Shown here: positions 326-42,081 of the stretch, piece by piece
Numbering within the stretch: the stretch's first letter is position 1
Layout of the letters: each line of letters begins with the position of its first letter
DNA from: a virus
Lineage: Duplodnaviria > Caudoviricetes
IMG/VR virus record: IMGVR_UViG_3300027921_000010
Location: 1 to 42,604 of that record
Direction: 5' to 3' (one strand)
Length of the DNA stretch: 42,604 nt
Program-made: the position numbers and the translations under genes
The notes under the pieces: generated by a model
Told to the model about the DNA's origin: nothing
Databases searched by the model: none
What the model saw: the letters and a program-made list of their open reading frames with translations, nothing else

Positions 326-1223
326 GACCCTTGAGGCCATCGAGAAGGCTATGTATGCCGATCAGGGGGCTTCATTCCGCGGCCACCTGGGCCGCCTTAC
401 GCCACTGGCCGCGGACGCCTACTCGACCAAAGAAGATCTGTGGCGCGATCACCTTGGCGCCTCCCTAATCGGGCGCGAATGTGGACGCGAGCTTTGGTAC
501 AGCTTTCACTGGGCAACCGAGAAGCGATTTGACGGCCGCATGCTTCGTCTCTTCAATCGTGGTCATCTTGAGGAACCCCGCTTCATAGCTCTTCTGACCA
601 TGATAGGGTGCTCAGTTTGGCAGGTCGATGAAAACGGGAAGCAGTTCCGTATCGGTGACCACAACGGACACTTCGGGGGATCGATGGATGGGGTTATTCA
701 GGGCCTCCCCGATATCCCAGATCAACCCGTCCTTGGAGAGTTCAAAACTCATAACGCCAAGTCCTTTGAAAAGCTGATCTCCGAAGGCGTCCTGAAGGCC
801 AAGTGGGAACACTTCATCCAGATGCAAGTGTATATGGGAAAGAACTCTCTGACCTGGGCGGCCTATTGCGCGACCAACAAAGACACCGACGCCATCCACA
901 TCGAGCTCGTCCAGTTCGACCAGCTCCAGTACCAGCGATACTTAGACCGTGCCGGGATGATTATCGCTGCGACCTCCCCGCCTCCACGTATCAATGAAAG
1001 CCCGGGATGGTTCAAATGCAAGTTCTGCGACCAGAAAGATGTTTGTCATAATGGGGCCACGCTAGCGCGTAATTGTCGGACGTGCCATTGGTCCCGGGTC
1101 GCTGAGAAAGGTGCCTGGGCGTGTGTCCATGAGGATACCTTGGAACCTTACGGGCCTACCAACATTTCCAAAGAGATGCAGAGAACTGGGTGCAAACGTT
1201 ACGAGCCACTGACTAACAAATGA
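309..1223 (+). CDS. Cas4-like / PD-(D/E)XK exonuclease
   Basis: HLGAS.IG..C, GS-DG and E-FK catalytic motifs, QMQVYM, and C-terminal CKFC...C and CRTC clusters. Start moved from 264 to GTG 309 (GAGG upstream). Confidence 0.85.
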   Translation: MLIATKTLEAIEKAMYADQGASFRGHLGRLTPLAADAYSTKEDLWRDHLGASLIGRECGRELWYSFHWATEKRFDGRMLRLFNRGHLEEPRFIALLTMIGCSVWQVDENGKQFRIGDHNGHFGGSMDGVIQGLPDIPDQPVLGEFKTHNAKSFEKLISEGVLKAKWEHFIQMQVYMGKNSLTWAAYCATNKDTDAIHIELVQFDQLQYQRYLDRAGMIIAATSPPPRINESPGWFKCKFCDQKDVCHNGATLARNCRTCHWSRVAEKGAWACVHEDTLEPYGPTNISKEMQRTGCKRYEPLTNK

Positions 1224-1927
1224 AAATAGCTGTCTTATTTGATGGAGCCGGTCTGGCCCGCCTAGGCCTAGAACAGGCTGGGCATACTTGTATTGGGGTG
1301 GAGCTAGACCCAATTAAGCATCACCTGTCGCTCTTTGTGGGTAGTGGTAATAGTCTACTAGCGGACGCTAAAGACTTCACCTTAGAAGGCTTCGATGCTG
1401 TTTGGGCGTCGCCGCCGTGTCAACAGCGCAGTCAAGCCAGAACGCAAGGTGCCCCAAAAAGTGCCTATGCCGAAGACCTAGTTGAGTGGAGTCTGGCTAT
1501 ATCGACCGACGTCCTGTGGGTAGAGAATGTGCTGGCGGCCCTACCCCACTTCGGCGCGTTATACAACGCAGCCCAATTCCTGGAGGTCCCTATTCAGTGT
1601 CGAAACCGCATAATGGGGGGACGCTACCGACCTCCCGGGGTGTTTAGGCCATATCAAAGGGCACCTTCTGGGGTCTGCCCCGCCATCACCGCAACGGAGT
1701 ATAGAGGCTGCGCCAGCGACCACCGAAGGGCCTCCCGCTTCTATGGTCGCAGATTAACCTTGGAGGAGTGCGCCTACCACCAAGGCTTCAGTATACCACC
1801 CGAGTGGTCTAGCGTTCCGCCTTGGTTCAACGGAACCGCCGTGGCTTGGCGGAACCAACTATATGAGGCCGTAGGAAATGGTGTTCCGGTCTATATGGCC
1901 AAAGCCTTTGGCGAGGCCTATAAATGA
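1220..1927 (+). CDS. C5-cytosine DNA methyltransferase (compact)
   Basis: Motifs in canonical order: I LFDGAG, IV SPPCQ, VI ENV, VIII QCRNR, IX RRLTLEECAYHQGF, X VGNGVP. ATGA overlaps on both sides. Confidence 0.9.
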   Translation: MKIAVLFDGAGLARLGLEQAGHTCIGVELDPIKHHLSLFVGSGNSLLADAKDFTLEGFDAVWASPPCQQRSQARTQGAPKSAYAEDLVEWSLAISTDVLWVENVLAALPHFGALYNAAQFLEVPIQCRNRIMGGRYRPPGVFRPYQRAPSGVCPAITATEYRGCASDHRRASRFYGRRLTLEECAYHQGFSIPPEWSSVPPWFNGTAVAWRNQLYEAVGNGVPVYMAKAFGEAYK

Positions 1928-3852: not shown

Positions 3853-4284
3853 ATGACCACCACAACCACGAAGACCTACTCGACCGCTTCCAATGCTCGC
3901 CGCGCCGCGAAACAAGCGGGTCTCACTCTCGACCTGGTCGAGATCCTGAACGACGGTTTCAGCGTTGGTCGCAAGTTTTGGTTTCAAACCATTCCAGTCG
4001 AAGACGTAACGGGTGGTGAACACTTTCACAGTGTTACCGAGGAAGAGCACGCTGCTCACCGCGGAGAAGTCCCCAACAAATCCACAATCGAGCGCCCCTG
4101 CCAACGAGTCTGGATCATCGCCGACGACATGCTGGTGGCCAACCCCAGCGTCAAGCGCAAAGACGTGATGGCGGCCTGCGTCGCAGCGGGTGTCGCCTTC
4201 TATACGGCACGCACCCAGTACCAGCAGTGGATAGGCGTTCGCAAAGAGATGGCTGCCCGCGAAGCCGCGGCTAAATCCAAATAG
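3853..4284 (+). CDS. Hypothetical protein, paralogue 1 of the RVW..AD...TA.TQY..W family
   Basis: Strong RBS (AAGGAG). C-terminal domain is shared with the next two ORFs. Confidence 0.8.
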   Translation: MTTTTTKTYSTASNARRAAKQAGLTLDLVEILNDGFSVGRKFWFQTIPVEDVTGGEHFHSVTEEEHAAHRGEVPNKSTIERPCQRVWIIADDMLVANPSVKRKDVMAACVAAGVAFYTARTQYQQWIGVRKEMAAREAAAKSK

Positions 4285-4298
4285 CCGCATAACTTGCC

Positions 4299-4322
4299 GT
4301 GACCCCGAAGCCTAGGGGTCAC
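4299..4322 (+). terminator. Intergenic hairpin
   Basis: GTGACCCC-8 nt-GGGGTCAC; no U-tract. Confidence 0.4.
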
Positions 4323-4348
4323 CGTCCAAACGACTCTAGGGGAACAGA

Positions 4349-4912
4349 ATGAAATATCTTCTACTTGACGTTACAACTCCTGAAACCAGATTGTTGCTGG
4401 TTGCGAAGGATATGGCCTCAGTCGTGCTGTGTGGGCGCATGGCCAAAGCCAAAGGCCTCAAAGTCATAGCTCCTCCGCTGGAGGGCCGGGCTTTTGCCAA
4501 GTTGGAATTGCTCCCATTGCAATATCTTTACTGGAATACTTTCCGGGAAGCCCCGTCAGATAACTACGCCACACTGGTGGCCGATTGCAAAAGGATGTTT
4601 GAGGCTATCCCGGTCGATGGCACCTCACTCCGAGAATTGGAGGCGGAGGTCGCACGTCTTTGCCCCGATACCCCGGCCACAACGGCGTCCACTGCGAAGC
4701 AACCTAAGGCCGATGGGGGTAGCCCCTCGACCCCGAAGTCAGGCTCCATAACCGGCCGCGTCTGGGCGATAGCCGACACCCTGTGGCAATCTAGCGGGGT
4801 AATGCCCGACCGCAAGGCCGTCATGGCAGCTTGCGAAGCCAAAGACATCAATCCGTCCACAGCCTCCACCCAGTACGGGAAGTGGAAGGCATCAAGCTTA
4901 GTACCAAAGTGA
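4349..4912 (+). CDS. Hypothetical protein, paralogue 2
   Basis: C-terminal PKSGSITGRVWAIAD...TASTQYGKW. Confidence 0.8.
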   Translation: MKYLLLDVTTPETRLLLVAKDMASVVLCGRMAKAKGLKVIAPPLEGRAFAKLELLPLQYLYWNTFREAPSDNYATLVADCKRMFEAIPVDGTSLRELEAEVARLCPDTPATTASTAKQPKADGGSPSTPKSGSITGRVWAIADTLWQSSGVMPDRKAVMAACEAKDINPSTASTQYGKWKASSLVPK

Positions 4913-4914
4913 TC

Positions 4915-4978
4915 TTGACCCAAAGAAGTTAAGCGAGTAGTATCTCTTCATGGACGCGGTGTCCATGAAGAGATACTA
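4915..4978 (+). promoter_or_regulatory. sigma70-like promoter overlapped by an 18-bp perfect inverted repeat
   Basis: TTGACC(4915)-17 nt-TAGTAT(4938). Inverted repeat TAGTATCTCTTCATGGAC-GCGGT-GTCCATGAAGAGATACTA at 4938-4978. Confidence 0.7.
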
Positions 4979-4999
4979 ACCATCTGATAGGAGCCAATC

Positions 5000-5389
5000 A
5001 TGGCAAAGAAGAAACCCGAAGCAACTAAGAAACCCGAAGTCAACACGGTCCCCACTCCGGCCCCTACACTGACCCCCACTCCGACCCCCGAGAAGGTTGG
5101 GCAGCCGACGGCTAACGGCGTCACCCGCCCGAAGTCGGGCACGATCTGCGGTCGCATCTGGGAGATGGCAGATGCGTTGTCGGCCACTATCGGTGTGCCG
5201 GCCGACCGCGCCTCAATCCTGGAGCAGGCCAAGATTGAGGGCATCAATGATGCCACAGCTGCTACCCAGTATGGCAAGTGGTGCAAGTTCTACGGTGTCA
5301 CCAAGCCGCACGCTGAAAAAGCGGCTGCCGAGGTGGTCGAGGAAGCGGCTGCCGAGGTGGTCGAGGAAGCGGCTGCCGAGGTGGTCTAG
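5000..5389 (+). CDS. Hypothetical protein, paralogue 3 (Pro/Thr linker, acidic repeat tail)
   Basis: AGGAG RBS; PKSGTICGRIWEMAD...TAATQYGKW; AAAEVVEE repeats. Confidence 0.85.
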   Translation: MAKKKPEATKKPEVNTVPTPAPTLTPTPTPEKVGQPTANGVTRPKSGTICGRIWEMADALSATIGVPADRASILEQAKIEGINDATAATQYGKWCKFYGVTKPHAEKAAAEVVEEAAAEVVEEAAAEVV

Positions 5390-7486: not shown

Positions 7487-8503
7487 ATGAGCGAAAGACT
7501 CAATCATAACGACGTGATCGACCTGGCCTCCATCTTAGCTGGCGAGGCACACTCTCTGGGGTTTGGTCCGAAGGTGTTTCCGATACCGCGAGGCGGAGTC
7601 CCTGCCGCCTACGCCGTACTGGCGGCCGCGGGTCACTTTCAACTCACCCTCGACCCTGAAGAAGCCGACTTCTTCGTAGACGACATCATCGATTCCGGAA
7701 CCACCATGCGCAAGTGGTGTGATGAATTCCCCGGGAAGCCTTTCCTCGCCTTAATTGACAAAACCTCCTCCGATTGCCCATGGAAAGGCAAGTGGGTTGT
7801 GTTTCCGTGGGAAAAGGAACCCACGGAGGTGGAAGACGACTCTATTGTCTCGACCATCCGCAACCGTATGGAGCGCGTAGGGGCTCCCTACTTCGCCAAT
7901 GACTGCATTGCACCCTTCATCTTCTCAAATGAGAGGCATCTCCTCCAGCTAGAGGTGGAACAGCGAGTGGAGCATCTCCTCCGCGGCCTACTGATTGACG
8001 TTGACCGCGACCACAACACCCAGGATACCGCCAAGAGGGTTGCCAAGATGTACCTGAACGAGGTCTTCAAAGGACGCTACCACCCAGCTCCGAAGATCAC
8101 GGACTTCCCCAATGCGAAAAACCTGGACGAGATGTACGTCACCGGACCAATCACAATCCGCTCCGCTTGTAGCCACCATCTGGTGCCGATAGTCGGCCGC
8201 TGCTGGATCGGGATCATCCCGGGAGAGCGGGTCATCGGCCTGTCCAAGTTCAACCGGCTAGTCGACTGGATCGCTTCACGTCCACAAATCCAAGAAGAGA
8301 TGGTCGTCCAGATTGCCGATTACGTCGAGAATCGGGTTGCCCCTGAAGGCCTCGCTGTGGTTATTGAAGCTACCCACCTCTGCATGACTTGGCGCGGGGT
8401 TAAGGAGCCGGCCGAGGCGGCAATGACCACAAGCGTCATGCGGGGCTCCTTCCGAACCAAACCGGAGGCCAGGGCAGAATTTATGGCTTTGGTGAAGAAA
8501 TAA
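7487..8503 (+). CDS. folE: Fusion of an N-terminal purine phosphoribosyltransferase-like domain and GTP cyclohydrolase I
   Basis: N-terminus has PRGG, PRPP-binding FVDDIIDSGTT and WVVFPWE. C-terminus has DTAKRVAKMY, SACSHH, GLSKFNR, QIQEE, HLCMTWRGV. Start at ATG 7487. Confidence 0.93.
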   Translation: MSERLNHNDVIDLASILAGEAHSLGFGPKVFPIPRGGVPAAYAVLAAAGHFQLTLDPEEADFFVDDIIDSGTTMRKWCDEFPGKPFLALIDKTSSDCPWKGKWVVFPWEKEPTEVEDDSIVSTIRNRMERVGAPYFANDCIAPFIFSNERHLLQLEVEQRVEHLLRGLLIDVDRDHNTQDTAKRVAKMYLNEVFKGRYHPAPKITDFPNAKNLDEMYVTGPITIRSACSHHLVPIVGRCWIGIIPGERVIGLSKFNRLVDWIASRPQIQEEMVVQIADYVENRVAPEGLAVVIEATHLCMTWRGVKEPAEAAMTTSVMRGSFRTKPEARAEFMALVKK

Positions 8504-8570
8504 GTTGAATTAGTTGGTGGGGTGATTTATGATTAGGTCATTCCCACCGACTAAGGAGTTAGACATGACC
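8504..8570 (+). promoter_or_regulatory. Repeated expression leader, copy 1 (promoter, inverted repeat, RBS, ATGACC)
   Basis: TTGAAT-17 nt-TATGAT; TAGTTGGTGGG...CCCACCGACTA; TAAGGAG; near-identical to 8874-8940. Confidence 0.8.
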
Positions 8571-8759
8571 AAGGCCGAAAAACAAGCTATCGCCAAAGCT
8601 GCGATAAAAATGTCCGAATTGATAACTGAGTTCGGAAGGGATAATTGCGGGGTGGACGCATGGCAGCGTGGGCATGATTTGCCGCGTGGTGTCAAGTACG
8701 GTTTTTACTGTACCCGTGGGGCGGGATTCGTGACATGTTTCGTGAGGCCCGCCTCATAA
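8565..8759 (+). CDS. Small hypothetical protein (moron-like)
   Basis: TAAGGAG RBS before ATG 8565; own promoter and a downstream hairpin. Confidence 0.75.
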   Translation: MTKAEKQAIAKAAIKMSELITEFGRDNCGVDAWQRGHDLPRGVKYGFYCTRGAGFVTCFVRPAS

Positions 8760-8767
8760 CAGCAACG

Positions 8768-8807
8768 TGGTGCGGCCCGGCGCCTCGCCGCTGGGTACGC
8801 ACTATTT
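8768..8807 (+). terminator. Terminator-like hairpin
   Basis: GTGCGGCCCGGCG...CGCTGGGTACGCAC followed by TATTT. Confidence 0.5.
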
Positions 8808-8814
8808 CCCATAC

Positions 8815-8865
8815 TGGGACAAGTACCTCACGGACGGGGCTGGTCGCCCGCGCATCCGAGTTCAT
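8815..8865 (+). pseudogene. 17-codon fragment of a dpdA homologue
   Basis: Translates to WDKYLTDGAGRPRIRVH, identical to dpdA 9669-9719, with 10 third-position differences. Confidence 0.85.
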
Positions 8866-8873
8866 GAAAAAGG

Positions 8874-8940
8874 GTTGAACTAGTTGGTGGGGGTGGTGAT
8901 AATCTAATCATTCCCACCCACTAAGGAGTTCGACATGACC
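8874..8940 (+). promoter_or_regulatory. Repeated expression leader, copy 2
   Basis: TTGAAC-17 nt-GATAAT; GGTGGG...CCCACC; TAAGGAG; ATGACC. Confidence 0.8.
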
Positions 8941-9159
8941 TACGAAGAAAAAGCCAAAGCTGCAGCCCAACAACAAGCCTCTATTGGGGATTCATGCGGC
9001 TTAGATACGAATATCTACGGGGAATTCACGCTCGGCATATATGATACGTCAGTTAAGCCAGCGCAGTACTTTCAGCTTAAGTATAAGTCGGCCGAAGCCG
9101 CACGCAACGCAGCTAAGAACTTCGGCTTTGTTAAAGTTTTTGATCGTATTAGGGAATAA
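8935..9159 (+). CDS. Small hypothetical protein
   Basis: Strong RBS; TAATG overlap with dpdA. Confidence 0.75.
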   Translation: MTYEEKAKAAAQQQASIGDSCGLDTNIYGEFTLGIYDTSVKPAQYFQLKYKSAEAARNAAKNFGFVKVFDRIRE

Positions 9160-10103
9160 TGAAGCTATACATCGCTGGGATCTATACCTCCAATTTCAAA
9201 ATTGGGGGTTCCCTCTACAATCGCTTGACGGACGGGGAAAAGGCCCTCCGTCACAGCGTGTCCTGCGTCCTGGAATCCTACCACTACATCGGGCGCCAAT
9301 CGTATGTTGACGCCCTGCGGACCGACAAGCAAAAGGTGTTCTTAGACTCGGGGGCCTTCTCGGCCTTCACCAAGGGCATCGAAGTCGACCTCCCCGCCTA
9401 CTGCGAGTATGTCAAGCGGAACATTGACATCATTGAGCACGTTGACGGCGTCCCATTAGCGTCGGTCCTGGACGGTATTGGTGATCCCCTGAAGACCTGG
9501 CAAAACCAGCAGGCTATGGAGCGCCTTGGCGTTCGGCCGCTGCCTTGCTTTCACTATGGTGAAGATGAACGATACCTTGAGTGGTATCTGGCCAATTATG
9601 ACTACATCACCCTGGGAGGCATGGTACCCATCTCGACCAAAGACCTTTTGATCTGGCTAGATCGCATCTGGGACAAATACCTGACCGACGGGGCAGGGCG
9701 ACCCCGTATCCGCGTTCACGGGTTTGGTCTCACTGCATATGTCTTGATGCAACGCTACCCGTGGTTCTCCGTTGACTCATCATCCTGGGTCCAGCAGGCG
9801 GCTAACGGCAACATCGTCTTGACCGACTATCGCTTTGGCTCGGTGATCTACCTCCCAGTTTCGGACAAGAGCCCTACCCGTCGCCAAGATGGGCGCCACA
9901 TTGACACTATGACCGAGATCGAGCGGGGACTTCTATGGGAGCACGCCAAGAAGTCCGGCTCGAATATTGAGCGCCTGAAGGCCGAGTACGTGAGTCGCTG
10001 GTGCTATAATATTGCCAGCTACGACAAGCTCGGGAAGATCCTGACCGACTTGACCAAGACCTTCAAGGCCGACCAGCAAGACCTATTTCAAGGACTCTTA
10101 TGA
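9159..10103 (+). CDS. dpdA: DNA-guanine transglycosylase (TGT-fold, DpdA family)
   Basis: FLDSGAFS, LDGIGD, PCFHYGE, LGGMV, VHGFG, SVDSSSW; clustered with folE/queDEC. DpdA subtype not assignable by eye. Confidence 0.88.
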   Translation: MKLYIAGIYTSNFKIGGSLYNRLTDGEKALRHSVSCVLESYHYIGRQSYVDALRTDKQKVFLDSGAFSAFTKGIEVDLPAYCEYVKRNIDIIEHVDGVPLASVLDGIGDPLKTWQNQQAMERLGVRPLPCFHYGEDERYLEWYLANYDYITLGGMVPISTKDLLIWLDRIWDKYLTDGAGRPRIRVHGFGLTAYVLMQRYPWFSVDSSSWVQQAANGNIVLTDYRFGSVIYLPVSDKSPTRRQDGRHIDTMTEIERGLLWEHAKKSGSNIERLKAEYVSRWCYNIASYDKLGKILTDLTKTFKADQQDLFQGLL

Positions 10104-10279
10104 TGGAAAGCTACCTGCTAGGCCAACGAGTAATCCTGAATGGTAAGGAAATTGGGACCGTAGTAAAACCGGAAACTGGGGGGACCCATTTTGGACTGTG
10201 GGTGTACTCCCCATCTAAAGGATACGCTAGTGACTACGCCCTAACATCGGTGAAACCTTTACCCGGCGGGCAGCTATAA
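10100..10279 (+). CDS. 59-aa hypothetical protein (not in the ORF track)
   Basis: MMESYLLGQRVILNGKEIGTVVKP...PGGQL*. ATGA overlap with dpdA and TAATG overlap with the next gene; fills the gap exactly. Confidence 0.75.
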   Translation: MMESYLLGQRVILNGKEIGTVVKPETGGTHFGLWVYSPSKGYASDYALTSVKPLPGGQL

Positions 10280-15510: not shown

Positions 15511-15552
15511 ATTTGTCCGGTAATCTGCTCTGCGACAGATTACCGGACAAAT
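15511..15552. terminator. 17-bp perfect inverted repeat at the convergence of the two arms
   Basis: ATTTGTCCGGTAATCTG-8 nt-CAGATTACCGGACAAAT between stops at 15488 (+) and 15559 (-). Confidence 0.65.
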
Positions 15553-29261: not shown

Positions 29262-29288
29262 GCTTGGTACTCCTATGAGTGTCTAAAG

Positions 29289-29346
29289 ATCAGGGGCCGA
29301 AGCCCCTGAGTCGATTAGGGGCCGAAGCCCCTGAGTCGATTAGGGG
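29289..29346 (-). terminator. Tandemly duplicated (25-bp unit) UUCG hairpins after the coat gene
   Basis: AGGGGCCGAAGCCCCTGAGTCGATT at 29292 and 29317; each reads GGGGC-TTCG-GCCCC on the minus strand. Confidence 0.8.
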
Positions 29347-40732: not shown

Positions 40733-40814
40733 ATTATATATAGGGGGACCCAATCCTCCAACCTTCAAAGGGAACATTATAGGGATTGTCAGTACTGGAG
40801 ACCGCCGATATAAT
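40733..40814. promoter_or_regulatory. Divergent sigma70-like promoters
   Basis: Plus strand TTGTCA(40786)-17 nt-TATAAT(40809). Minus strand TTGGAG-17 nt-TATAAT (40761..40733), plus a second minus-strand TATAAT at 40781..40776. Confidence 0.75.
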
Positions 40815-40840: not shown

Positions 40841-41251
40841 ATGGACTACGATGAACGCATGAGACTGCTACAAAGCTGGAATACCGCGGTAGTGCAGGTG
40901 GAGGCTTGCAGGCCGCTGATTGCCCAGGAGCAGGAACTCCGTAAGGCCGTCATGGCTGAGTTCTTCCCCACTCCCAAAGAAGGGGTCAACAACCTCGACA
41001 TGGGCCAGGGCTGGACGCTCAAGGGCACCTACAGGATCGACCGCAAGGTGGACGAAGCGGCTCTCCCCGCGGTCAAGGAGCAGCTCCGCGAACTCGGGGT
41101 CAACGCGGATACCGTGGTCAGATACAAACCCGAAGTCGCCACCACCATTTACAAGACCCTCTCAGATCAGGCCCGTCGGGTCTTCGACACCGTCCTGACC
41201 ATCAAGCCTGGGAGCCCGACTGTCGAACTCATCCCTCCGAAGGATGTGTAA
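40841..41251 (+). CDS. Conserved phage protein of the recombination module
   Basis: AGGAG RBS; E..LR...F..P.EG.N...G..LK....R..D...KP...T.KPG.P; TAATG overlap with the ATPase gene. Confidence 0.8.
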   Translation: MDYDERMRLLQSWNTAVVQVEACRPLIAQEQELRKAVMAEFFPTPKEGVNNLDMGQGWTLKGTYRIDRKVDEAALPAVKEQLRELGVNADTVVRYKPEVATTIYKTLSDQARRVFDTVLTIKPGSPTVELIPPKDV

Positions 41252-42081
41252 TGAGTATCCTTTCGCAGGTCAATCACTCGCAGCATCGAGTCGGTATCCG
41301 GGCGGTGATTGCCGGGATCGAGAAGGTGGGCAAGACGACGCTCGCGTGCTCGGCTCCGCGAGTCCTGCTGGTGCCACTGGAACAGGGCTTCTCCGGGGTA
41401 TCGGTGATGAAGACCCCGATGCTGGAATCCTTCTCCGACGTCATTGCCTTGCTGGACGAAGTCATCGCCACTGGCCCGGCCTTTCCCTACAGCACGCTAG
41501 TATTCGACTCGGCCACGGCTTTGGAACGCTTGATCCATGACGGGGTCTTGCGAGCTGATCCGGTCTACGCCAAGGGGAACAAGAAGGGACTTACCATGGA
41601 GTCTGCCCTGGGCGGATATGGCAAAGCGTATCAGTTCGCCAATGAGCAGTTCGCCACCTTCTTGCAACGCTGCGACTGGCTCGCAACCAACATGGCCGTC
41701 AACATCGTTCTGACCTGTCACGTCTTTGCCGCCAAGGTCATTGACCCCGCCTTCGGGGAGTATGATACCTGGGACTTGCTCCTCCATTCCCCGAAGAACC
41801 AGAAAGCCTACGGCAAGCGCGAGATGCTTACCCAGTGGGCGGACTTGGTGGGCTTCTTGCATGAGCCACTCTTCGTCGCCGAAAGCGACAAGACGCAGCT
41901 CAAGAAGGGTATTTCAACAAACAAGGGGCGTATACTAGCGGTCAATCGGACGCCCGGCTACGTCGCCGGCAACCGGTACGGTGTGGTCAACGACATCTCA
42001 ATACCGAAGGAAAAGAGCTGGAATCCGCTCGCACAAGAGATATATAATTCTTGTGGGGCTGATTTTTTCAACCGGGATTGA
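41251..42081 (+). CDS. AAA_24 / Sak4-like ATPase
   Basis: GIEKVGKTT, E.G, TLVFDS, GGYGK.Y, H, W.D.VGF, AGNRYG. Confidence 0.88.
   Translation: MSILSQVNHSQHRVGIRAVIAGIEKVGKTTLACSAPRVLLVPLEQGFSGVSVMKTPMLESFSDVIALLDEVIATGPAFPYSTLVFDSATALERLIHDGVLRADPVYAKGNKKGLTMESALGGYGKAYQFANEQFATFLQRCDWLATNMAVNIVLTCHVFAAKVIDPAFGEYDTWDLLLHSPKNQKAYGKREMLTQWADLVGFLHEPLFVAESDKTQLKKGISTNKGRILAVNRTPGYVAGNRYGVVNDISIPKEKSWNPLAQEIYNSCGADFFNRD

What the first reader, a model, noticed from the sequence alone, without database searches (positions are those of the whole stretch)
8815..8865. Orphan 51-nt dpdA copy with only synonymous differences
Seen: 8815-8865 and 9669-9719 both encode WDKYLTDGAGRPRIRVH but differ at 10 of 17 third positions, with no amino-acid change. 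The copy lies between a terminator-like hairpin and the second repeated promoter, within a possible 38-aa micro-ORF (GTG 8767..TAG 8883, no clear RBS). Inference: it came recently from the functional dpdA of a diverged relative, not from local duplication. It could be a recombination scar, a homology arm for module exchange, a decoy target, or a DpdA-derived peptide. The segment ends at the conserved VHGFG strand.
Basis: partly seen in the sequence, partly recalled or inferred. Interest (0 to 1): 0.7.

Follow-up and report, generated by a model that had tools for sequence, protein, structure and literature searches.

The report
Crossover scar of a replaced dpdA
A phage carries a 51-base piece of a second version of its DNA-modifying gene dpdA, most likely an ordinary leftover scar from a mispaired crossover between two related phages and a later trimming deletion, with no sign of a function of its own.

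Summary
One Logan unitig spans the region with no difference (possibly the source sample). Both ends of the piece can be read. Left: the hairpin before it (8770-8811) is the best match among 85,000 window positions to the leader that precedes a complete dpdA in two sister phages, so a full dpdA likely stood here and lost about 530 nt. Right: its last 12 nt, read one base shifted, give S-E-F-M-K-K-G-stop, a folE C-terminus, directly before promoter P2, as the real folE ends directly before P1. Best reading: a microhomology crossover joined one phage's dpdA to another's folE end, stacking two promoter-ORF cassettes; a deletion then trimmed the old dpdA. Eight differences in 39 nt is typical of two natural dpdA alleles with the same peptide. 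No donor, second copy in relatives, effector or transcript evidence was found. The 38-aa micro-ORF is likely spurious. Ordinary phage mosaicism; low interest.

The parts
7487..8503 (+). folE (GTP cyclohydrolase I with an N-terminal PRTase-like part); ends RAEFMALVKK-stop directly before promoter P1
   Evidence: PHROGs phrog_2197 E 8e-54; sole member of its 90% cluster
8504..8564 (+). Promoter-RBS module P1 (palindromic)
   Evidence: 79-nt repeat with P2, 78%; sigma-70-like boxes 8505-8533; fold z -5.2
8565..8759 (+). ORF64, accessory gene of unknown function
   Evidence: Two homologues at 77-79% (P0002, P0003); no family
8767..8811 (+). GC-rich hairpin (8767-8805) and leader, homologous to the DNA directly upstream of a full dpdA in two sister phages
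   Evidence: Fold z -2.7; best of about 85,000 window positions for the N-terminal extensions of P0128 and P0129; shuffles 4 of 300 and 0 of 300
8814..8854 (+). Relic of a second dpdA allele (codons 171-184), 8 synonymous differences in the first 39 nt
8855..8866 (+). 12-nt overlap that reads as dpdA I-R-V-H in one frame and as folE S-E-F-M in the next; inferred crossover point
   Evidence: Rank 1 of 85,184 on a 12-column folE-tail profile; 15.8 bits against at most 11.6 at the same site of 49 natural dpdA genes
8867..8878 (+). Rest of the inferred second folE tail (K-K-G-stop), the stop overlapping the -35 box of P2
   Evidence: Sequence; four residues after E-F occurs in 10 of 41 folE tails
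8874..8934 (+). Promoter-RBS module P2 (palindromic)
8935..9159 (+). ORF74, accessory gene with no homologue found, AT-richer (45% GC)
9159..10103 (+). Intact dpdA (DNA deazaguanine transglycosylase); 9669-9719 is the segment matched by the relic
   Evidence: phrog_887 E 7e-74; model pLDDT 91.6 with TGT structures as best fold matches; 89-99% to the nine other members of its cluster
8767..8883 (+).
   Evidence: no family; exact sequence not in the protein collection
41251..42081 (+). Sak4-like single-strand annealing protein, a candidate catalyst for the crossover (not shown to act here)
   Evidence: phrog_124 E 1e-22

Best explanation
The 51-mer is a synonymous-only piece of a second dpdA allele, likely a non-functional scar left when a microhomology crossover joined one phage's dpdA to the folE end of a related phage and a later deletion would have removed the rest of the older gene. 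Steps: (1, shown) the folE-dpdA gap is an insertion hot spot for small accessory genes in this phage group; (2, inferred from sister proteins) parent X had folE-P1-ORF64-hairpin-dpdA(A); (3, inferred from the junction sequence) parent Y had folE'-P2-ORF74-dpdA(B); (4, inferred) out-of-register annealing over about 12 nt, where dpdA's R-V-H-G codons mimic folE's E-F-M codons one base shifted, gave folE-P1-ORF64-hairpin-dpdA(A, codons 1-184)-folE' tail-P2-ORF74-dpdA(B); (5, inferred) a deletion of about 530 nt removed the leader end and codons 1-170 of allele A, which would restore genome length and remove the long repeat that could loop P2-ORF74 out. The phage's Sak4-like annealase is a candidate catalyst (untested). 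The differences are synonymous because they built up while both alleles were working genes.
For: Left junction: two sister DpdAs (P0128, P0129; 98% identical to the window's) were called with 23-residue extensions whose residues 2-15 match window 8770-8811 with a minimum of 7 and 5 base changes in 42; these are the best of 85,124 positions (next best 8 and 10; BLOSUM scores); shuffled extensions do as well in 4 of 300 and 0 of 300 trials; the match ends at 8811. The two extensions differ at 8 of 23 residues while the DpdA bodies differ at 0 of 314, so that leader is non-coding. Right junction: profile from 41 distinct folE tails ranks 8855-8866 first of 85,184 (own folE sixth; the intact gene's equivalent 343rd); 15.8 bits against at most 11.6 at this site in 49 natural dpdA genes, and only 7 of 43,874 other dpdA positions reach 10 bits; the site is in the top five of its gene in 9 of 49 genes, so it is a natural look-alike; stop position and adjacency to P2 mirror folE-P1. 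Divergence is ordinary: 46 of 58 pairs of natural dpdA segments with the same 13 residues differ at 6-13 of 39 nt, against 8 here; L004 (62% protein identity) is 35/39 to the relic, closer than the resident gene's 31/39. Mosaic boundary: folE and queC are sole members of their 90% clusters, while dpdA and the clamp have clusters of 10 and 11. Sister DpdAs are themselves mosaic, with blocks of change in 1-98 and 193-314 around a core with 0-1 changes. In many relatives folE abuts dpdA; gaps range from about 0 to 1852 nt.
Against: No DNA of a true sister or of either parent was obtained: the leader match rests on protein extensions, and no folE ending in E-F-M-K-K-G was found (0 hits in viral contigs). 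The folE-tail test was made after seeing the sequence and depends on window width: rank 1 (12 columns), 2 (9), 38 (15), 436 (18); K-K-G lacks the hydrophobic residue that most tails have two places after M; one natural dpdA (L046) matches the 12-mer at 11 of 12, so it could be all dpdA. The hairpin leader is seen in front of B-like proteins, not in front of a known allele A. The pairs are not independent. Singletons in 90% clusters may reflect short sister contigs. The exact 17-mer is rare outside the sister clade (1 of 120 homologues), so allele A must come from a lineage not sampled.
Confidence: 0.72

Rival explanations
1. Still a neutral scar, but by another path: a short foreign dpdA piece (or a pre-formed piece-P2-ORF74 block) was dropped in behind the hairpin of a sister-like locus, and the folE-tail likeness is coincidence.
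For: The hairpin leader is linked to B-like DpdAs in sisters; natural dpdA genes match the junction 12-mer over a suffix of 8 or more bases in 6 of 48 cases; a 5-bp inverted repeat spans the left junction.
Against: Leaves unexplained why the piece stops exactly where dpdA mimics a folE end, 8 nt before a promoter that in its twin follows folE directly, and why it lies in the dpdA orientation behind a dpdA leader.
Confidence: 0.17
2. Functional nucleic acid: the P1 transcript yields a hairpin-capped RNA (or the DNA acts as a decoy) whose 51 nt match a competitor phage's dpdA better than the phage's own, for guide, antisense or decoy action.
For: Position behind a hairpin in a transcription unit; closer to some foreign alleles than to self over 39 nt (35 vs 31); no missense change since arrival.
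Against: No exact or near-exact target in the phage, IMG/VR, JGI-metagenome or GTDB scans (best 41 of 51); no second copy in 73 other dpdA loci; sense orientation; no Rfam match at a gathering score; the piece itself is unstructured (z -0.35); no repeat array and no guide-dependent effector among the ORFs scanned; the hairpin is accounted for as a dpdA leader.
Confidence: 0.05
3. A translated 38-aa micro-protein carrying a DpdA-mimicking peptide under purifying selection.
For: The frame is open from 8746 to 8883; 17 of 17 residues kept with saturated third positions.
Against: Its first 15 codons match a leader that diverges freely between sisters (8 of 23 vs 0 of 314); start codon inside the hairpin stem, no Shine-Dalgarno seen; ends inside the promoter; starts in helix 160-175 and ends in strand 185-188 of the model; synonymous saturation is normal for independent alleles.
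Confidence: 0.03
4. Assembly chimera of two co-occurring phages.
For: Run X1 holds a second, more abundant contig with an ORF64 relative.
Against: One unbranched unitig of 9,915 nt, depth 16.9, matches 8300-10150 exactly and no joints are listed.
Confidence: 0.02

Closest known systems
Mosaic junctions in tailed-phage genomes made by illegitimate or homeologous recombination (Martinsohn et al. 2008, PMC2327257; passages seen)
   Same: Novel joint between related phages; short similarity at the joint; a phage annealase is encoded (Sak4 anneals oligonucleotides up to 20% diverged, PMC5928155, passages seen).
   Different: Here the joint is out of register between two different genes (dpdA and folE) and a mid-gene relic survives, so both junctions can be read from one genome.
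Phage dPreQ0 clusters queE-queC-queD-folE-dpdA, e.g. Pseudomonas phage iggy, CAjan (PMC10484667, passages seen; PMC10516641, passages seen) and PSASB_03
   Same: Same five genes in the same order; the paper notes hypothetical genes inserted between them in some phages.
   Different: This phage has a P22-like head and tail, two stacked promoter-ORF cassettes and a dpdA relic between folE and dpdA; the modified base and motif were not measured.
att sites that duplicate part of the target gene with synonymous changes (phage 21 / e14 in icd; recalled, no call)
   Same: A short synonymous-only copy of a coding segment near the intact gene.
   Different: Copy is mid-gene and upstream, not the displaced 3' end; no integrase among the ORFs scanned; excision between the copies would destroy dpdA.
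Diversity-generating retroelement template repeats and viral mini-CRISPR spacers (recalled, no call)
   Same: An intergenic copy of part of a gene next to a hairpin.
   Different: Differences are not adenine-specific; no reverse transcriptase; no flanking short repeats; no exact protospacer found.

Membership tests
Recombination scar (mosaic junction) | Sequence on each side traces to different parental arrangements | tested here: met
   Left side matches the dpdA leader of sisters; right side matches a folE tail before a promoter; cluster membership changes across the joint
Recombination scar (mosaic junction) | Short similarity at the joint | tested here: inconclusive
   12-nt dual-reading overlap, rank 1 of 85,184, but post hoc and width-dependent (ranks 1, 2, 38, 436); parents not found
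Recombination scar (mosaic junction) | Not conserved in relatives | tested here: inconclusive
   No second copy in 73 other loci (69 with one copy, 4 truncated; redundant records included), but none is a close sister; P0128/P0129 go from hairpin straight to a full dpdA
Recombination scar (mosaic junction) | No function of its own | not testable with these tools
   Needs RNA-seq, Ribo-seq and a deletion mutant
Phage DpdA / dPreQ0 cluster (for the intact gene) | queE, queC, queD, folE, dpdA in order | tested here: met
   PHROGs hits for all five
Phage DpdA / dPreQ0 cluster (for the intact gene) | TGT-like barrel fold | tested here: met
   Model pLDDT 91.6; best PDB matches are tRNA-guanine transglycosylases, E 2e-5, TM 0.54
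Phage DpdA / dPreQ0 cluster (for the intact gene) | 7-deazaguanine present in virion DNA | not testable with these tools
   Needs LC-MS/MS or nanopore signal
DGR template repeat | Differences confined to template adenines | tested here: not met
   1 of 10 differences at A in the copy, 3 of 10 at A in the gene; 3 and 1 of 10 at T
DGR template repeat | Reverse transcriptase nearby | tested here: not met
   None among ORFs scanned (33 + 21 against PHROGs, 30 against Pfam, overlapping sets); many ORFs have no family
Viral mini-CRISPR spacer / guide RNA | Flanking repeats and a matching protospacer | tested here: not met
   No short repeat pair around the piece; no Rfam hit at gathering score; best natural match 41 of 51
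att site with gene-replacement segment | Integrase and a recombination product that restores the gene | tested here: not met
   No integrase family hit; recombination between the copies leaves 144 of 314 codons
Homing-endonuclease scar | Endonuclease gene in or beside the target in some relatives | tested here: not met
   0 of 20 ORFs picked from folE-dpdA gaps of relatives hit an endonuclease family in Pfam; 18 of 20 had no family

The most novel reading that the evidence does not exclude
The scar has been put to use: transcription from P1 yields a hairpin-capped 50-nt RNA (or a DNA decoy) carrying a rival phage's dpdA sequence, different enough at wobble positions to spare the phage's own gene, and acting with ORF64 to block or divert a competitor's DNA-modification gene.
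Probability: 0.05. Interest if true: 0.7.

Novelty: new member of a known kind. Interest (0 to 1): 0.2.

Why it matters
As a neutral scar it matters little, but it is an unusually legible snapshot of how phages stack accessory cassettes and swap a DNA-modification gene: it points to a frame-shifted likeness between dpdA's V-H-G codons and folE's E-F-M end as a ready-made crossover point in these clusters. The side finding that sister DpdAs swap blocks around an invariant core gives a direct way to map which part sets the modified motif (GA versus GA/GGC in the two phages with a known motif, PMC10484667).

Tried and rejected
Donor search: blastn of 8760-8935 against 50,697 phage records gave only weak dpdA hits, 81-89% over 35-43 nt; degenerate peptide patterns gave 3 loci in IMG/VR, all ordinary dpdA genes ending L/V-K-V-H, 0 in JGI metagenomes, 0 in GTDB genomes. 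Promoter motif scan: 7 hits, all unrelated to the window. Hairpin and folE-tail patterns in IMG/VR: 0 hits each. ORF64 and ORF74: no usable relatives with DNA (L032 has no similarity to the window); atlas hits all under 0.9. No RNA holder listed; X5, guessed to be RNA, lays on the relic only through an ordinary dpdA of another phage. Runs X2-X5 hold single short pieces, near-identical only inside dpdA 9332-9765, with no cover of the insert; X6 and X7 laid nothing: too thin to use as evidence. One search had an off-by-one error in the folE-tail test and was redone. The first regex returned no relatives and was redone. PDB sequence search for DpdA: 0 hits. No tRNA genes. Paper searches for dpdA with truncated/duplicated, small RNA/guide and phage gene remnant/recombination scar listed nothing on a dpdA remnant (listings only; subscription journals mostly missing; no supplements were read). 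Rejected: local duplication with neutral decay, DGR template, att site, homing-endonuclease scar, homology arm.

Full report
Setting. The window is a 42,604-nt virus record (94% complete) with a P22-like head and tail and a queE-queC-queD-folE-dpdA cluster. The gene at 9159-10103 is a DpdA: phrog_887, E 7e-74, a confident model (pLDDT 91.6) and tRNA-guanine transglycosylases as best fold matches. In Pseudomonas phage PSASB_03 folE abuts dpdA. Here 655 nt lie between them: promoter P1, ORF64, a hairpin, the 51-mer, promoter P2 and ORF74. Among 74 loci with a dpdA hit (the window's own and redundant records included) the folE-dpdA gap runs from about 0 to 1852 nt and holds unrelated small ORFs; 0 of 20 picked ORFs hit an endonuclease family. 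A paper on phage iggy also notes hypothetical genes inserted in these clusters (PMC10484667, passages).

Observation. Confirmed: same 17 residues, 10 differences in 51 nt, all at third positions; p about 1e-6 to 5e-6 for neutral decay of a local copy; the only such gene-fragment copy among the 40 best six-frame self-hits. One 9,915-nt unitig of run X1 matches 8300-10150 with no difference; X1 may be the source sample.

Is the divergence odd? No. Among 48 distinct natural dpdA segments, 58 pairs share the first 13 residues exactly, and 46 of those pairs differ at 6-13 of 39 nt (pairs are not independent); the copy and the gene differ at 8. L004, only 62% identical in protein, is 35 of 39 to the copy. 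The full 17-mer is rare among distant homologues (1 of the 120 best hits) but is the sister-clade sequence (7 of 8 full-length sisters compared). So the copy comes from a working dpdA allele of an unsampled lineage. No exact donor was found.

Left junction. Two sister DpdAs, P0128 and P0129 (98% to the window's gene), were called with 23 extra N-terminal residues. Residues 2-15 of these extensions match window 8770-8811, the hairpin directly before the copy, with at least 7 and 5 base changes in 42. These are the best of 85,124 window positions (next best 8 and 10; also top by BLOSUM62); shuffled extensions do as well in 4 of 300 and 0 of 300 trials. The match stops at 8811. The two extensions differ at 8 of 23 residues while the DpdA bodies are identical over 314, so this is non-coding leader. 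In those sisters the hairpin is followed after eight codons by a complete dpdA. The simplest reading is that a complete dpdA once stood behind this hairpin and lost about 530 nt, by chance in frame with the hairpin's GTG, which produces the 38-aa micro-ORF. This step is inferred from proteins; I could not obtain the sisters' DNA.

Right junction. Read one base shifted, 8855-8878 gives S-E-F-M-K-K-G-stop, the stop overlapping the -35 box of P2. The real folE ends A-E-F-M-A-L-V-K-K-stop directly before the -35 box of P1. A profile from 41 distinct folE tails ranks 8855-8866 first of 85,184 window positions, above the window's own folE (sixth), with the intact gene's equivalent at rank 343. With other column sets the rank is 2 (9 columns), 38 (15) and 436 (18): likeness starts at 8855, as a crossover there would predict, but the test is post hoc. 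The 12-mer scores 15.8 bits; the same site in 49 natural dpdA genes reaches at most 11.6, and 7 of 43,874 other positions reach 10; the site is in its gene's top five in 9 of 49 genes; four residues after E-F is the tail length in 10 of 41 folE genes. Against: K-K-G is an atypical tail, no such folE was found, and L046's own dpdA matches the 12-mer at 11 of 12. Two of the ten differences (R185, H187) lie in this overlap and may come from folE.

Mechanism. Shown: the two copies, the hot spot, the twin promoter modules, the leader match, the dual-reading 12-mer. Inferred: parent X (folE-P1-ORF64-hairpin-dpdA allele A) and parent Y (folE'-P2-ORF74-dpdA allele B) crossed over out of register at the 12-mer, stacking both cassettes and leaving a truncated allele A; a deletion then removed its first 170 codons. 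That would restore genome length and remove a 550-nt repeat through which P2-ORF74 could loop out; what remains has no exact run above 9 nt. In keeping with a mosaic boundary, folE and queC are sole members of their 90% clusters while dpdA and the clamp have 10 and 11 members; dpdA is 97-99% identical to most sisters and the clamp 90-93%, so the intact gene may be the newcomer. Short sister contigs could also explain the singletons. The genome encodes a Sak4-like annealase; Sak4 of HK620 anneals oligonucleotides up to 20% diverged (PMC5928155, passages), and illegitimate and homeologous events are reported to contribute similarly to phage mosaicism (PMC2327257, passages). Its role here is untested.

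Rivals. Homology arm: recombination at the copy would leave 144 of 314 codons. Peptide: the frame is leader + relic + promoter, the start sits in the stem, and the piece runs from mid-helix to mid-strand. Guide or decoy: no target better than 41 of 51 and no second copy in 73 other loci, no Rfam match at a gathering score, no effector among scanned ORFs; but no close sister DNA and no RNA data were available, so it is not excluded. DGR template, att site and homing scar fail their defining tests (see membership). The icd att-site, DGR and mini-array comparisons are recalled, not from calls.

Novelty and score. A new instance of a known kind, a mosaic-junction scar. Searches listed no paper on a dpdA remnant (listings only); the scan's own index showed nothing on this feature and one ordinary dpdA cluster in another genome. 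Confidence: scar by this path 0.72, scar by another path 0.17, functional RNA or decoy 0.05, peptide 0.03, artefact 0.02. Interest 0.2.

Noticed in passing
window 9159-10103 with P0005, P0006, P0127-P0133: Sister DpdAs are mosaic: core 99-192 has 0-1 changes, while P0133 differs at 20 of residues 1-98, P0132 at 27 of 193-314, and P0006 at both (18 and 27). One read in X3 switches to a P0133-like sequence at 9332. The swapped blocks are candidates for the DNA-motif specificity determinants.
   Followed up: partly
window 8504-8564 and 8874-8934; weaker relatives at 40762 (minus strand) and 13250: The promoter modules are long imperfect palindromes spanning -35 to the ribosome-binding site (fold z -5.2 and -4.3), which could be operators or cruciforms; similar modules occur elsewhere in the genome.
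   Followed up: partly
run X1, record 2 (1,319 nt, depth 64) laid on window 8601-8674: A second, more abundant element in the same sample encodes an ORF64 relative and does not lay on dpdA; ORF64 looks like a mobile accessory gene with few known relatives.
   Followed up: partly
window 10100-10279: A 59-aa ORF between dpdA and the sliding clamp is the sole member of its cluster; a 1,593-nt sister contig listed for both a dpdA C-terminal piece and the clamp seems too short to hold it, so this is probably a third accessory insertion.
   Followed up: no
window 7487-7950: folE carries an N-terminal phosphoribosyltransferase-like part (phrog_8995, E 5.5e-6).
   Followed up: no
window 3853-5389: Three adjacent paralogous small proteins share an R-x-W-x-x-A-D ... 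T-Q-Y-x-x-W motif (phrog_7864/18634), also seen as paralogues in L001-L004, L009 and L019.
   Followed up: no
window 1220-1927: A DNA cytosine-methyltransferase-like gene (phrog_116) beside the deazaguanine pathway, suggesting two modification systems.
   Followed up: no
window 4929-4990, 15511-15552, 29288-29337: Long intergenic inverted repeats and a 25-nt tandem repeat with internal hairpins, probably terminators or regulatory sites.
   Followed up: no
L070:196-513: An ORF in a relative's folE-dpdA gap has a weak N-glycosylase/DNA lyase (AGOG) hit, E 0.0035, below the family cut-off.
   Followed up: no
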